DNA of 64,000 nt, from the NCBI GenBank assembly GCA_964106915.2, contig OZ066923.1. The stretch is one strand, 5' to 3'. The DNA is from Podarcis gaigeae. Its lineage: Eukaryota. Numbering within the stretch: the stretch's first letter is position 1; each line of letters starts with the position of its first letter. A program made the position numbers. Shown in pieces: positions 24,001 through 45,000 of this stretch.

Positions 24001-27000
24001 TGAAATCAGGAATTTATGTCTGCATGGTGAAGCACAATGGCCTTATAGCTGGGTGTGGGTGACCTTATAGCTGGGGGAAAGGGCATCATTTAATGCTCTG
24101 CTTCAGGCGGCAAAAGGTTTTGGGCTAGCTCAGTCATGAATGAAGGCCTTAGTGCAACGTAAGTAGATACAATATATACTCACTCGTAAGAAAAAGGGAA
24201 ATTTTTTCCCATAGAATCCAACTCGGAAAAACTCTGGCTCCAAACGTTGTTGATCCATAATTTTATCATACAAAGAAGCTTCCATCACCTGAGTAAGATC
24301 AGATTGAAAATAAACAAATCAGATAAGCAATATCAATAGCTAAAATGCAAGCAAGGTAAACGAGAGTTCCCCAGCCCACATAAAGATGCTTGAATGTATC
24401 TTTCAGCTTGTGCTTATCCGCATTGGCTCAATATACATCTGGATTTGTATAGACAGGAGGACAAATTGAACATGAGGGGTAGCACAGTGTTTGTAGAATT
24501 AACAAAAGTGTTACTTAACGATTGTGGTTTAGTGTTCAGAGATTCATCAGTCTAAATATAATCAATGTGGAAGGCAGCATTGTACTGCAGTTTAAAAAAT
24601 AAATTAGAGTAGAAATAGAAACCAGTACTGAAGTCGATGGTGCTTGGCAAATGCGAAGCATAATCCTGCCTCAACCTGGCACAATGTTTCTTGGCTTGAA
24701 TGGGCCTGATTCGTGTCTTCTCTTGCCAGGATTTTAAGTACATTACTTAAGAGTTTGGGCATGGCCAGTAGGTGAAATAAGTCCCATTGAGTTCAGAAGA
24801 GCTCAGGTAAGTATATATAGGATTGCAATCTCAATATAGTACAGGAACTACACTGCAATTGCATACAATTTGAACCATTTGTAAATGGCTTTAAAATAAC
24901 ATAGAAGTGTGAGGGTCTCTGCTTTCCTTTTTTGCAGCAATCTGACCCAGGCAAACATGTATGTTAGAATAACAAATGTAGCTAGAACAGGGATTGCTGG
25001 GTTGTAAGAACCTGTTGTAAAAAAAGATTAAGTCAAAACAAAACAAAACAAAACATGAGCATCACAGTTTCAGCATGAAAGTTTCAATGGGAAAAATTAA
25101 ATTGCTGCCTTGCTGACTAAACAAAAGCCAGTTTTATACTGATTCTTAATGGCCAAATACATCTATCTCCATTACCCGCATCTTGCTGAGGTTTCTGTAG
25201 TCGTAATAGCTTTCATACTGCTCAGCGATCTTCCTGCATAAGATAATGCCATTCTCCCAGCACTGTAGACAAGCAAGAGAAAAGGAATGTTTGGCAAATA
25301 GAAGGCTCTTAAACGCTTTTTAGTTGTTTCAAACAGAGTTTCAAGTGTCCCAGTTGGCAGTACAATCTAGCATTAACCAGCGCTTTCAGAGAACATTAAC
25401 CAACAGGCAGAAAACAGCTGCTTATGAGAACTGACAATATGGTATTATAAAGCCTCTTCCTTTTTGGGATAGGTGAACTGCACTCACACTTGTCGTACAA
25501 AATAAACCTGAATCATCCCTGTTCATCTACCATGCATCAAAATCCATGGCAAAAGAAGCGTCTGGTCACATGACAGCAGCAGTCAAGAATCAATTCCACA
25601 GCAGCGTTCCTAGAATAGGAACTTTGGGGGGGGGGGGTAAGGTTCTTTTTCGGTTTCAATTCCACAGCACTATTATTCAAATAGGAACTTTTAGGGTTCT
25701 TAAAATCTAGGTCTGTTAAACTTGAGTTCTGCAATTACTGCCAGTGCTAGCTGTGGGAGAGAACTGTGAGTACGTACGTACATTACTATTCAGCCAATGG
25801 CTTGGTTCACACACCACATTAAACCATAGCTTAAAATAAACTATGGTTTAACTCACAATACTGCTTTTCCAGGGGCGCCGACTTATAAAAAATATTGGGG
25901 GGGCCCATACCGGGGTCCTGCCCCGGGACGTTTTCTAAATTTTAGATGAAAATTAGTGAGTTTTAAAGTTTTTTTAAAGTATTTTAGAGTCATATGATCA
26001 ACATTAGAACCCCGAAAACTCGACTCTCTATAACTCCACACTCCGGGAAACTCGACAAGCCTGAAACACTTTTTGGCTTTGAAAAAAGAAACAAAACATA
26101 AACAAGCACGGTATTTTCGTAAAAAGCTAATTTAATTTACAGTAACAATTATGCTTATAGACTATTACAGAGCAGTGAATATATAGCTCTGAAAAGACTG
26201 AAATGATATTTAAATAAATCCTAAACTATCATTAAAAGAATAAAACATAAAATATTGCTGTCGCACAGTAATAGCACTTTGATTAATAAGTGAAATAGCT
26301 AATTTAAGCTTACTTTGAATAAGGCTGAGGGTTCATTAAATAAAAATAATATCTCAAAGTTAATGCTTTAATACAGTTAATAAAGTTAATACAGTATGCC
26401 TAATACTGTATGTAAATACTGTAATACTGTATGTAAATAACGGGCTTTAATTGGGTCTTACACCCTAAAAATATTTAAGTATTTGAAAATAACTAATACA
26501 GTACTATAGTAATATAGAAATACAGTACTAAACTAGTACTAATATTTCAAAACTGAAAAATTAACATTCTGTATGTATTTAATTCTCTATTTTATAAAGA
26601 TTTTTAATATCTGACAGTGAGTTTGGAGTAGCCCAATGCAAAAATCCTGAGGATCCATGTGGATCCGTGCTTTGTAACCATGTTTTTGCACCACTGTGAC
26701 CCTAGGCAACAGTGGGTGCGTGATTTTTTTGGTGCAAGATGTAGCCATGGACATGCTATGTGATCTGATGGTGAATCTGGGGTGACCCAATGCAAAAATC
26801 CTGAGGATCCATGTGGATCCGTGCTTTGTAACCACGTTTTTGCACCATTGTGGCCCCAGGCCACAGTGGGTGCGTGATTTTTTTAGTGCAGGCTGTAGCC
26901 ATGGACATGCTATGTTATCTGATGGTGAATTTGGGGTGACCCAGTGCAAAGATCCTGTGGATCCATGCTTTGTAACCACGTTTTTGCACCATTGCAGCCC

Positions 27001-42000: not shown

Positions 42001-45000
42001 AGCTTAAATTAGCTATTTCACTTATTAATCAAAGTGCTATTACTGTGCGACAGCAATATTTTATGTTTTATTCTTTTAATGATAGTTTAGGATTTATTTA
42101 AATATCATTTCAGTCTTTTCAGAGCTATATATTCACTGCTCTGTAATAGTCTATAAGCATAATTGTTACTGTAAATTAAATTAGCTTTTTACGAAAATAC
42201 CGTGCGTGTTTTTGTTTTGTTTCTTTTTTCAAAGCCAAAAAGTGTTTCAGGCTTGTCGAGTTTCCCGGAGTGTGGAGTTATAGAGTCGAGTTTTCGGGGT
42301 TCTAATGTTGATCATATGACTCTAAAATACTTTTAAAAAACTTTAAAACTCACTAATTTTCATCTAAAATTTAGAAAACTTCCCGGGGCAGGACCCCGGT
42401 ATGGGCCCCCCCAATATTTTTTGTAAGTCGGCGCCCCTGGTCTAACCTACTGTACAATAGTAAATTCGACATTTGTTGCTCCACATATTTTTTGCCTCTG
42501 ACTCTGGCCACCACTGGCACATGTCATCCGTAAGGTTGCTGAAACAAGAATTCATCCATTGGGCTGAGAAAGATTCCCCACCCATGCCTTACAACAGGGT
42601 TTTCCAAACTTGGGTTTCCAGCTGCTTTTGGACTGCAATTCCCACCATCCCTGAACACTAGTCCTGCTAGCTAAGGATGATGGGAGTTGTAGTCCAAAAA
42701 CATCTGGATATCCATGTTTGGGAAACCCAGCCCCAGAAGGATACACTGCAGCTTCCATCCTAAATCATCTCTCTTTTTTGTCCAAGCTAGTGGAGCTATG
42801 ATACTAAACAATGGGTCCATGGGCAAGAGTTTGTTCTACCCCTGTCAACTGGAAGACCTAAGTGGTAAGAACAGATCCTCTCCTCCTCTGTAAAGCATCA
42901 TATACATGCACTAGCTTTGTTTGTTTGTTTAATAATAATATAAATCCCACCATATATACCCAAGCATCTTTCTGAATCTACACTGTAAATCTTTAATAAC
43001 CTGGCTATCTTGTGAAATTGAAAGCAAGGACAACAAATATGGTTCAGATCGTCCTCTTTCAAGGGTATGGAGTGAGCTGTTCTGTGGGAGGGAGGGAAGA
43101 AGTTTGGAGAAAAGGGGAAACTCAATGTATCTCCTTTTGTGCATTATTTAATGAAAATCAATAAAAAATATTGTTATAAAAATGCAAAACCAAAGGGGGG
43201 GGAGGATATGGAGTGAGACTTCCCACAGTCTAGAATTAGAAAGGGGACTGGAATTTCAAGATGATCCTGTGTTTAGGTTCTGGCAATGAAAATTTCATGC
43301 ATGGCCTCATCTAAAAACACACGCAGCCCAGCCCTAAGCATGTTGGCATGGAAGTAAGTCCCACTGAGCTGAACAATGCTCGCTCACAAGTGAATGTTAT
43401 AGGTAGGAAGAATGCAGCCAATCTTTCTGTGCTCAGTCCCCGCAGTAGAAAGGAGTTATGGTGCAGGGTAGCGATTTGATTCTTGCCTTTGCCATATACC
43501 CTCAAGGGGGCCTTAGGCAAGCCTGATTCCTGCTCACCCCATCCCTCAATCTGCAACAAGGATGTGATGCACAGGGCCACTGCAAAGATTACAACTATAT
43601 AAAGAACAAATGCGCAGCCAGAGATCTTTTGCATTTCTTTGAGAGCAGGCCTTGCAAAGCAAGGTGAGCTGCAATATGCTATTCACCACTCACCCAATGC
43701 CTGGAACTGCTATCAAACTAAACAGACCACCTGCAAGACTGGTACCACCAAAGGAAAAGCTGGACAGATGTGGACACTTCCTTTCTTTGGATTCAAGTGA
43801 TCCGTGGCTTACATGAAAAATTTAGACTAGCGCTACCTGCCTCCTACATCTTTCGTCTGCTCTGTCTAGTTGCCATCGTGTTTTCAGGCCACAGATGGCC
43901 TCTCTCTATGCCAAATGTGCAGAACCTAAGACAATTCGTCCTCGATTCTTGGCTGTGTCTGTTGCCACAGCTCCTACAGATGTCAAAAGTGAGGAGGGGG
44001 TTGCAATGCATCCCATCAGAAGATGCGCAGTAAGACCCAACCTGACACTGGCAATATGCCTGATGTAATACCATCAGACCTAGTGCACAGCTGAGGTGCA
44101 CATTAGTGCGACATGAGACTGATTTGCACTAGCATAAGAGTCATTCTTAGAGCTGATCTACATATGCAGAACCACAATGTTCTACTAATGTTCTGTGATT
44201 TATTTATTTTTTGGGGGGAGAACCTTTTACATAGAAACCTATTGTGTCAGGAAGGTGGTGAGAACTCTTCTTCCTGGCACATAAGCTTTCGACAGGCAAG
44301 AATAATTTTGTGTGGGTGGGGTGGGGTGGGGGAGGCAATCAAACATGTGGCTCACCCCCTTGTACCCTACATTGAATTATGAACTCCTGAAAACTTGGTA
44401 TCTGATGTTGTGTGTGTGCTTTCATATTCTAGCTAATGATAATTTTCTCGAAGGAATGCTGGCACCAGACTTTCAGACCATGGCATATTTCTTGCTATAA
44501 ATCATGCAGCAATTGCTCACCTGTAGTCCAGCAGTCTCTCCATAAGACGGGTTACAGTGGCGATTAATGAAACGCCACTTTCTCTCCATGTTTCGCGTTC
44601 AATTTTCTTCAGCAAGCTGGAAGGAATGAACCCAGGGCAAAATATCAGCATTTATTTTTACCGGTCTCCATAACAACCAATTTATACTCAAAGGTACCCA
44701 AAAATGCCTTAGCAGTATCTGCTCATTCACAGATTTTATTATTATTATTATTATTTCCTTCAAACTAAGCACAATTGCAAATATTCTCTTACCTGGGATA
44801 AGGACCAAAGAGTGGAATTCTACTCCAGGAAGCATTGACAAGGCAAATTGAATTTTTTTTAGGTTAGCCAACTTCAAGACAACACACACACAGAGAGAGA
44901 AAGCATCCTATTTTCCAAATATATCTAGACATCTCACAACCTTTACACACAGAAGATTCTGGATTTATTGCATGCTCACCCCTTTGTGCTATTCATTAGA

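What the first reader, a model, noticed from the sequence alone, without database searches (positions are those of the whole stretch)
25870..42439. Two young 1.8-1.9 kb hAT elements in inverted orientation bracket three DOCK4 exons
Seen: copies at 25870-27782 and 40637-42439 are near-identical reverse complements with different TSDs, so they are independent insertions. They lie about 2.3 kb and 2.1 kb outside exons 38453-38513, 33526-33619 and 30085-30233 (304 nt in total). Known: intronic reverse-complementary repeats promote back-splicing and ADAR editing. Inference: the pre-mRNA can form a kb-scale duplex yielding a lineage-specific 304-nt circRNA and/or a frameshifting skip near the start of DHR-2. 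The pair is also a substrate for inversion or alternative transposition, and the proximity suggests local hopping.
[Added by the scan's program, not by the reader: the finding's places include an assembly gap (unread letters, written N; its length is only estimated) at 30980 to 31115. Whether the letters on both sides are continuous or in frame is not known: test that first.]
Basis: partly seen in the sequence, partly recalled or inferred. Interest (0 to 1): 0.7.

Follow-up and report, generated by a model that had tools for sequence, protein, structure and literature searches.

The report
Inverted transposon pair around DOCK4 exons
Two nearly identical copies of a small non-coding "cut-and-paste" transposon sit in opposite orientation in the introns on either side of three exons of a lizard DOCK4 gene, an ordinary arrangement that could make the RNA fold back on itself, but no effect on the gene has been shown.

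Summary
Copy A (25870-27782, +) and copy B (40637-42439, -) are 98.0% identical over 1767 aligned pairs. Both end in the same 14-nt terminal inverted repeat, and each has its own perfect 8-bp target-site duplication, so they are separate insertions of one non-autonomous hAT-type element. They are not an assembly artefact or a segmental duplication. They lie in the two introns bracketing three canonical DOCK4 exons (61+94+149 = 304 nt; start of DHR-2 lobe A). The host is a lacertid lizard, closest to Podarcis, not human. The assembly gap (30980-31115) is intronic, and no reference residue is missing across it.

The two arms can form a 1741-bp RNA duplex (-3296 kcal/mol, against -1175 for the two self-folds together), and nothing in the window competes with it. 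Skipping the three exons shifts the reading frame and gives an early stop.

The circle, the skip, the editing, the inversion and the "local hopping" are all untested predictions of a well-known mechanism, in which young transposon pairs cause mostly non-functional circles and skips. I rate it a new member of a known kind, of low to moderate interest.

The parts
25870..27782 (+). hAT-type non-autonomous element, copy A (1913 nt); antisense to DOCK4; lies in the intron downstream (in transcript sense) of the third bracketed exon
   Evidence: TIR CAGGGGCGCCGACT / CATAGGCGCCGACT (12 of 14). No Pfam hit in any stop-free stretch of 50 aa or more. Its longest stop-free stretch has no protein relatives.
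25862..25869 (.). Left target-site duplication of copy A (TGCTTTTC)
   Evidence: read directly; 8 of 8 identical to 27783-27790.
27783..27790 (.). Right target-site duplication of copy A (TGCTTTTC)
26609..27138 (.). 154-nt tandem array inside copy A, 3.5 units
   Evidence: TRF; families D1, D2.
40637..42439 (-). hAT-type non-autonomous element, copy B (1803 nt); sense to DOCK4; lies in the intron upstream of the first bracketed exon
40629..40636 (.). Target-site duplication of copy B (GGTTAGAC on the minus strand)
   Evidence: 8 of 8 identical to 42440-42447.
42440..42447 (.). Target-site duplication of copy B (GGTTAGAC on the minus strand)
41289..41674 (.). 154-nt tandem array inside copy B, 2.5 units
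   Evidence: (families D3, D4).
38453..38513 (-). DOCK4 exon, 61 nt (reference residues about 1166-1186); first exon inside the loop; would supply the back-splice acceptor
33526..33619 (-). DOCK4 exon, 94 nt (reference residues about 1187-1217)
   Evidence: One search matches it to residues 18-47 of the DOCK2 DHR-2 construct.
30085..30233 (-). DOCK4 exon, 149 nt (reference residues about 1217-1268); last exon inside the loop; would supply the back-splice donor
30980..31115 (.). Assembly gap (136 N, length estimated), inside the intron between the second and third bracketed exon
   Evidence: Not filled.
44521..44616 (-). DOCK4 exon immediately upstream of the loop (96 nt); ends with two bases of a split codon
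25176..25262 (-). DOCK4 exon immediately downstream of the loop (87 nt); 607 nt from the outer end of copy A
24184..24288 (-). Next DOCK4 exon (105 nt), in which the shifted frame meets a stop after a three-exon skip

Best explanation
Two copies of one non-autonomous hAT-type DNA transposon (1.9 and 1.8 kb, no coding capacity, with an internal 154-nt tandem array) inserted separately and in opposite orientation. They sit in the two introns that flank three constitutive DOCK4 exons in a lacertid lizard. The gene is intact, and the insertions are passive intronic passengers.

Because the arms are 98% complementary, the DOCK4 pre-mRNA can in principle fold into a duplex of about 1.74 kb that loops out about 12.9 kb holding the three exons. 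The expected consequences are those known for inverted Alu pairs:
- some back-splicing from the donor at 30085 to the acceptor at 38513, giving a 304-nt circle;
- some loop-out skipping, giving a frameshifted transcript that would be a target for nonsense-mediated decay;
- A-to-I editing of the arms.

I expect these to be minor by-products without function.

Shown: the anatomy of the elements, the TSDs, the exon map, the frame arithmetic and the duplex thermodynamics. Inferred: every RNA outcome.
For: - Element anatomy and independent insertion.
- The pair is by far the strongest repeat pair among 46 non-self matches in the window: 1807 and 1591 bits, against 557 for the next.
- Inside each arm, the internal inverted repeats are 27 nt or shorter.
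- The inter-arm duplex is -3296.5 kcal/mol with 1741 pairs. The self-folds are -575.0 and -600.4, and three shuffled controls give -636 to -670.
- All three exons have canonical splice sites.
- DOCK4 identity: the third exon is 100% identical to named Podarcis muralis and Euleptes europaea DOCK4, and 21 collinear tblastn matches lie on the minus strand.
- Position at the start of DHR-2 lobe A.
- Frameshift and early stop on skipping.
- hAT elements are the commonest DNA transposons in a lacertid genome (2.3%) and often sit in introns (PMC9498476, passages).
- Young transposon pairs in flanking introns drive circles that are mostly noise (PMC8516420, abstract and Discussion).
- Inverted intronic repeats within 5-kb windows are linked to loop-out skipping (PMC13019027, passages).
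Against: - No RNA evidence of any kind was available, so the circle, the skip and the editing are predictions.
- Stronger or longer hairpins can fail to help circularization or can inhibit it (PMC4201285, abstract and passages).
- The arms are 2.1-2.3 kb from the splice sites and about 12.9 kb apart. The upstream intron may therefore often be spliced out before the second arm is transcribed (my inference from general knowledge of co-transcriptional splicing).
- The gap inside the loop could hide further repeats.
- The hAT assignment rests only on the TSD length, the TIRs and the element size. Neither the copies nor the window holds a transposase.
Confidence: 0.75

Rival explanations
1. One reading: the pair makes a lineage-specific, abundant 304-nt circular RNA and/or a regulated frameshifting skip that measurably lowers or tunes DOCK4 output.
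For: - Very large duplex energy and no competing pair.
- Canonical splice sites.
- The skip is frameshifting with an early stop.
- DOCK4 is listed once as the source of a circular RNA in a rat study (PMC10203163; search listing only).
Against: - No expression data.
- Hairpin strength does not predict the efficiency of circle formation (PMC4201285).
- Circles tied to young transposons are generally low-level noise (PMC8516420).
- A frequent frameshift in the catalytic domain would be costly, so the allele's presence in an assembly argues for a small effect (inference).
Confidence: 0.12
2. The second copy arose by local hopping from the first (or both from a nearby donor), rather than as two unrelated arrivals of an abundant family.
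For: - Only these two copies occur in 64 kb, they lie 12.9 kb apart, and they are 98% identical.
- Linked reinsertion is documented for the hAT elements Tol2 and Ac (PMC2753552, passages).
Against: - Two copies cannot give a phylogeny.
- The family's copy number and divergence spectrum are unknown, because no eukaryotic DNA collection was open.
- The 2.0% divergence and 6 indels, including a change in tandem-unit number, show that the copies are not fresh sisters.
- Cut-and-paste normally removes the donor.
Confidence: 0.3
3. Assembly artefact: an inverted duplication produced by mis-assembly near the gap.
For: A gap lies between the arms, and fold-back artefacts do occur in assemblies (general knowledge).
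Against: - Each copy has its own perfect 8-bp TSD and ends exactly at the TIRs.
- The copies differ at 35 sites and 6 indels.
- The flanks are unrelated.
- The exons between them are in the correct order, each present once.
Confidence: 0.02
4. The element belongs to another superfamily with TSDs of about 8 bp (for example P, Mutator-like or Merlin; these names are recalled), not hAT.
For: - No transposase is available to classify it.
- The 3' terminus CATAG departs by one base from the YARNG terminal motif that I recall for hAT.
- Only 1 of 2 TSDs fits the Buster consensus nnnTAnnn (PMC3517528). By my recollection of the Ac-type consensus, neither TSD fits it fully.
Against: - An 8-bp TSD, a short 14-nt TIR beginning CAGGGG and a size under 4 kb all fit the hAT definition quoted in PMC3517528.
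- That paper's hAT MITE has a TIR beginning CAG(G/A)GG.
- hAT is the dominant DNA-transposon group in lacertids (PMC9498476).
Confidence: 0.1

Closest known systems
Inverted Alu (and other SINE) pairs flanking circular-RNA exons in mammals (ZKSCAN1, HIPK3, EPHB4; PMC4201285; PMC8516420)
   Same: Reverse-complementary young transposon copies sit in the two introns flanking internal, canonical exons. The predicted looping brings the downstream donor close to the upstream acceptor.
   Different: - The arms here are a DNA transposon about 1.8 kb long at 98% identity, roughly six times longer than an Alu and far more stable as a duplex.
- The host is a lizard.
- No circle has been observed.
Loop-out ('jump') exon skipping by inverted intronic Alu pairs (PMC13019027; PMC13019944, listing and abstract only)
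   Same: An inverted pair lies within 5 kb of the looped exons, and skipping would change the reading frame.
   Different: Three exons and 12.9 kb are looped rather than a single exon, and no skipped isoform has been observed here.
Non-autonomous hAT elements and hAT MITEs (for example Mar in Drosophila willistoni, PMC3517528)
   Same: 8-bp TSDs, a short imperfect TIR beginning CAGGGG/CAGRGG, no coding capacity, and an AT-rich internal part (the first 740 nt of copy A are 29% GC).
   Different: The element is larger (1.8-1.9 kb against 0.6 kb), carries a 154-nt tandem array and a GC-rich 3' third, and has no identified autonomous partner.
Closely linked Ac/Ds pairs in maize that undergo alternative transposition and rearrangement (recalled, no call)
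   Same: Two copies of one hAT-type element lie a few kb apart in one gene.
   Different: There is no evidence here of a transposase source or of any rearranged allele. The inner ends of the pair are both 3' termini and the outer ends both 5' termini.

Membership tests
hAT superfamily (non-autonomous member) | 8-bp target-site duplication | tested here: met
   2 of 2 copies have perfect 8-bp TSDs. The definition comes from PMC3517528 (passages).
hAT superfamily (non-autonomous member) | Short terminal inverted repeats (5-27 bp) and overall length under 4 kb | tested here: met
   The TIR is 14 nt with 12 of 14 complementary. The elements are 1913 and 1803 nt.
hAT superfamily (non-autonomous member) | Terminal motif YARNG (recalled, from no call) | tested here: inconclusive
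   The 5' end CAGGG fits. The 3' end CATAG departs at one position.
hAT superfamily (non-autonomous member) | Family-specific TSD consensus (Buster nnnTAnnn, PMC3517528; Ac nTnnnnAn, recalled) | tested here: inconclusive
   GGTTAGAC fits the Buster consensus and TGCTTTTC does not, so 1 of 2. Two sites are too few to decide.
hAT superfamily (non-autonomous member) | hAT transposase encoded by the element, or by an autonomous partner with the same termini | tested here: not met
   None of the 227 stop-free stretches of 70 aa or more in the window, and none of the 97 stretches of 50-69 aa within 24133-45028, matches a hAT transposase family. The copies are therefore non-autonomous. A partner elsewhere in the genome could not be searched for.
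Circular-RNA locus driven by reverse-complementary repeats | Reverse-complementary sequences in both flanking introns, canonical splice sites on the circle's outer exons, and no stronger pair within one intron | tested here: met
Circular-RNA locus driven by reverse-complementary repeats | An observed back-splice junction that resists RNase R | not testable with these tools
   No transcript data for this species are reachable.
Loop-out exon skipping by inverted repeats | An observed isoform that joins the exons outside the loop | not testable with these tools
   Only the frame consequence could be computed. Both named reference proteins that I read, P0006 and P0010, contain all three exons.
DOCK4 (DOCK-B subfamily guanine-nucleotide exchange factor) | The exons match DOCK4 better than its paralogues, and the exons are collinear | tested here: met
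   - The third exon is 100% identical to named lizard DOCK4.
- Every listed hit with a gene name, as opposed to 'hypothetical' or 'uncharacterized', is DOCK4 or DOCK4b.
- The solved structures of DOCK5 and DOCK2 match far more weakly: 5 of 5 hits, E from 3e-5 to 1e-2.
- 21 collinear matches cover residues 1055-1920.
- The exons were searched one by one. The first (20 aa) gave no Pfam hit and rests on the tblastn match alone.

The most novel reading that the evidence does not exclude
In this lizard lineage, a kilobase-scale, nearly perfect intronic double-stranded RNA made by two DNA-transposon copies acts as a built-in governor of DOCK4. It would divert a sizeable, perhaps tissue-dependent, share of transcripts into a 304-nt circle or a frameshifted, decay-prone skip at the entrance to the catalytic DHR-2 domain. 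It would also be a heavily edited double-stranded RNA. That would be a non-primate, non-SINE counterpart of Alu-pair regulation, with natural presence/absence alleles to test it.
Probability: 0.07. Interest if true: 0.55.

Novelty: new member of a known kind. Interest (0 to 1): 0.25.

Why it matters
If the predicted RNA products exist, this locus would be a clean natural example outside mammals of a DNA-transposon pair, rather than a SINE pair, creating a lineage-specific circular RNA or exon skip in a conserved signalling gene. Each arm is dated by its own insertion, so lacertid species or individuals lacking one arm would serve as natural controls. As it stands, it is an ordinary pair of intronic transposon copies. 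Its main practical value is as an annotation: the gene model is intact, the gap is intronic, and the repeats are non-coding.

Tried and rejected
1. Pfam on the three exons one by one gave 0 of 3 hits because they are too short. I identified them instead through solved structures, the large protein search and tblastn of a named reference.
I dropped that route and scanned stop-free stretches instead. 215 of the 312 stretches of 50-69 aa, those outside 24133-45028, were not scanned.
One of the two stretches was then identified. The other, 56419-56940, stays unexplained.
4. I searched the longest stop-free stretch inside the element for relatives, hoping to find other copies annotated as proteins. 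Only 1 marginal hit came back among 6 candidates (E 5e-4, 39% identity over 49%), so there is no family.
5. Rfam (gathering thresholds) and ARAGORN found nothing in the window.
6. A literature search combining circRNA, reverse complementary, DNA transposon and flanking introns found 0 papers. The search on lizard circRNAs gave 13 papers; the 10 listed, judged from titles and abstracts, are not about a lizard circRNA.
7. I rejected the assembly artefact and the segmental inverted duplication on the TSDs, the exact ends and the differences between the copies.
The family's copy number, its autonomous partner and the state of the orthologous introns in other lizards therefore stay unchecked.
9. 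I did not request supplementary files of papers. Those of PMC8516420 and PMC13019027 may hold distance and length statistics that bear on how likely such a long, distant pair is to act.
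Full report
**What is there**

The window carries the 3' two-fifths of a DOCK4 gene on the minus strand. 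A named gecko DOCK4 (P0010, Euleptes europaea, 1959 aa) gives 21 collinear tblastn matches covering residues 1055-1920. The third bracketed exon, searched alone, is 100% identical to DOCK4 of Podarcis muralis and Euleptes europaea. Every listed hit that carries a gene name is DOCK4 or DOCK4b; 438 of 439 candidates passed E <= 1e-3, and 120 were listed.

Of eight named DOCK4 references from seven lizards and the tuatara, Podarcis muralis is closest: 586 of 620 aligned residues (94.5%) against 87.7-92.7% for the others. A retrotransposon fragment elsewhere in the window is 97% identical to a Podarcis muralis entry. I therefore take the contig for a lacertid lizard, not for human. Short unnamed hits that could be of human origin were neither fetched nor used.

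**The gap, tested first**

There is one N run, 30980-31115. It lies in the intron between exons 33526-33619 and 30085-30233. The reference protein passes from one exon to the next without a missing residue, and the phases of the two exons fit. The gap therefore hides no coding sequence that the reference knows of, and reading frame across it is not at issue.

Whether the intron is continuous, how long it really is, and whether it hides further repeats is unknown. The 12,854-nt spacing of the arms and the 3292-nt intron length are estimates.

**The two copies**

- All 12 of 12 inverted pairs found in 24000-44000 connect 25869-27782 with 40637-42440.
- Aligned as they stand, the copies (1913 and 1803 nt) share 1732 of 1767 aligned positions (98.0%; Jukes-Cantor distance 0.020). 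They differ by 35 substitutions (22 transitions, 13 transversions; 11 in a CpG context) and 6 indels totalling 182 nt. The largest indel is one whole unit of an internal 154-nt tandem array: 3.5 units in copy A and 2.5 in copy B.
- Both copies end in CAGGGGCGCCGACT on one side and its imperfect inverse (12 of 14) on the other. At up to 3 mismatches this motif occurs 5 times in the window. Four of these are the four termini; 1.34 are expected by chance, and 0 of 100 shuffles reached 5.
- Copy A is flanked by TGCTTTTC on both sides and copy B by GGTTAGAC, each 8 of 8.
- Similarity stops at the termini.

This is the signature of two separate cut-and-paste insertions. It rules out a segmental inverted duplication or a fold-back assembly error.

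**Classification**

An 8-bp TSD, a short TIR and a size under 4 kb are the hallmarks given for hAT elements (PMC3517528, passages). That paper's hAT MITE also has a TIR beginning CAG(G/A)GG.

Neither copy has coding capacity:
- No Pfam family matched any stop-free stretch of 70 aa or more. Across the whole window, the 227 such stretches gave only three DOCK domain hits and one Tc1/mariner-type DDE_3 remnant above the curated cut-offs.
- None of the 97 stretches of 50-69 aa between 24133 and 45028 gave a hit above the curated cut-off.
- The longest stop-free stretch in the element has no protein relatives: 1 marginal hit among 6 candidates.

The copies are therefore non-autonomous. The assignment to hAT rests on structure alone. 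The defining transposase was looked for in the window and not found, and a partner elsewhere in the genome could not be searched for. hAT elements are the main DNA transposons of a lacertid genome (2.3%) and are often found in introns (PMC9498476, passages), so their presence here is unremarkable.

**Position relative to the gene**

- Copy B (sense to DOCK4) lies in the 6007-nt intron between exon 44521-44616 and exon 38453-38513. It is 2123 nt from the acceptor.
- Copy A (antisense) lies in the 4822-nt intron between exon 30085-30233 and exon 25176-25262. It is 2302 nt from the donor and 607 nt from the next acceptor.
- The three exons have AG/GT borders and code for reference residues 1166-1268.
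- In the reference, the TPR region ends at residue 1134, and the DHR-2 lobe A profile starts matching at residue 1183, at profile position 4.
- The second and third exons align to residues 18-47 and 49-101 of the crystallised DOCK2 DHR-2 fragment.

'Near the start of DHR-2' is therefore correct.

**How it would work**

In the pre-mRNA, the two arms can pair over 1741 base pairs with a duplex energy of -3296.5 kcal/mol. That compares with -575.0 and -600.4 for the two arms folded on their own, and -636 to -670 for three shuffled controls.

Competition is weak:
- Within each arm, the internal inverted repeats are at most 27 nt.
- Among 46 non-self matches in the window, the next best pair scores 557 bits against 1807 and 1591 for this pair.
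- No other repeat pair links these same two flanking introns to each other. The nearest alternatives are SINE-like or LINE-tail copies of 150-440 nt at 72-88% identity that link other introns.

The loop would bring the donor at 30085 close to the acceptor at 38513 (back-splicing, a 304-nt circle). It would also bring the donor at 44521 close to the acceptor at 25262 (a skip of all three exons).

304 is not a multiple of three. Reading the downstream exons one at a time in the shifted frame, exon 25176-25262 stays open and the first full codon of exon 24184-24288 is a stop. More than a dozen exon junctions follow it. By the established rule for nonsense-mediated decay, that predicts a decay-prone transcript.

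I left out the joined step. Neither the spliced mRNA, nor the skipped form, nor the 304-nt circle was assembled or searched. Any open reading frame that runs across the back-splice junction is therefore unexamined.

**How likely**

The mechanism is textbook. Reverse-complementary young transposons in flanking introns promote back-splicing (PMC8516420, abstract and Discussion read; PMC4201285, abstract and passages). Inverted pairs within 5-kb windows are associated with loop-out skipping (PMC13019027, passages).

The same papers caution against reading strength as effect:
- Strengthening or lengthening the hairpin sometimes inhibits circularization.
- Thermodynamic stability is 'not an adequate predictor' (PMC4201285).
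- Circles tied to young transposons are judged to be mostly mis-splicing noise (PMC8516420).

The arms are also far apart, so the upstream intron may be removed before the second arm is transcribed (my inference). My judgement:
- A detectable circle or skip in deep data: about even odds.
- An effect large enough to matter for DOCK4 output: about 0.1.
- A function: lower still.

A frequent frameshift in the catalytic domain would be costly. That such an allele sits in a reference assembly itself suggests the effect is small.

**DNA-level ideas**

The longest perfectly identical blocks between the copies are 214, 208, 112 and 106 nt. Homologous recombination between the arms, which would invert the three exons, is conceivable, but nothing shows it.

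Local hopping is documented for the hAT elements Tol2 and Ac (PMC2753552, passages) and would explain two same-family copies 12.9 kb apart. Two copies cannot test it, and no eukaryotic DNA collection was open to count the family.

The 2% divergence measures the time since the copies last shared a template, not the insertion dates. I give no age in years because the substitution rate would come from memory.

**The 'virus-like stretch'**

The only reverse-transcriptase-related sequence I found is outside the finding. It is a stop-free stretch at 8725-9342 (+) that matches the C-terminal part of LINE-type 'reverse transcriptase domain-containing' proteins of lizards. The stretch shows no RT domain of its own in Pfam. 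Its last ~430 nt recur as four truncated tails and one shorter fragment elsewhere in the window. It is described only.

Two Pfam names of viral origin at 60978-61187 score below their curated cut-offs, and I take them for chance.

**Verdict**

This is a new instance of a known kind of arrangement.

Noticed in passing
window 8725-9342 (+); related tails at 9040-9469, 32157-32598, 46952-47350, 52531-52956 and part of 21508-21691: A 206-aa stop-free stretch, antisense to DOCK4, matches the C-terminal part of LINE-type reverse-transcriptase-containing proteins: 97% identical to a Podarcis muralis entry and 93% to Zootoca vivipara. Its 3' ~430 nt recur as truncated copies in several DOCK4 introns, one of them inside the loop. 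This is the only reverse-transcriptase-related stretch I found.
   Followed up: partly
window 12399-12689 (+): A remnant of a Tc1/mariner-type transposase (Pfam DDE_3, E 5e-11, 43 bits, above the cut-off) sits in a DOCK4 intron.
   Followed up: no
window 25801-25813 and 27841-27853; also 25819-25851: A perfect 13-nt inverted repeat lies almost symmetrically about 57 nt either side of copy A's insertion site, and these are its only perfect occurrences in the window. A 15-nt hairpin lies next to it. Copy A may have landed inside a small palindromic, MITE-like unit. The flanks were compared apart and not joined.
   Followed up: partly
window about 44793-44822 (-): A 30-nt micro-exon with AG/GT borders lies 176 nt upstream of exon 44521-44616. 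It encodes the 10 residues present in the Podarcis muralis DOCK4 entry P0006 and absent from the Euleptes entry P0010, so it is probably alternatively included.
   Followed up: partly
window about 41980-42010 (copy B): The 28-nt stretch present in copy B but not in copy A is a local duplication that includes two and a half telomere-like GGGTTA units.
   Followed up: no
window 5803-6152, 9581-9907, 39434-39803, 50862-51220, 60541-60869; and 29210-29453, 37617-37863, 49388-49633: Two SINE-like repeat families (about 350 nt and about 250 nt, 72-86% identical between copies) are scattered through the DOCK4 introns in both orientations. Some form weaker inverted pairs across other sets of exons. 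No tRNA-like head or Rfam family was detected.
   Followed up: partly
window 56301-56940 (+), 47864-48394 (-), 57443-57907 (+): Stop-free stretches of 150-177 aa in GC-richer intron segments have no Pfam match. The atlas was closed, so they remain unexplained.
   Followed up: no
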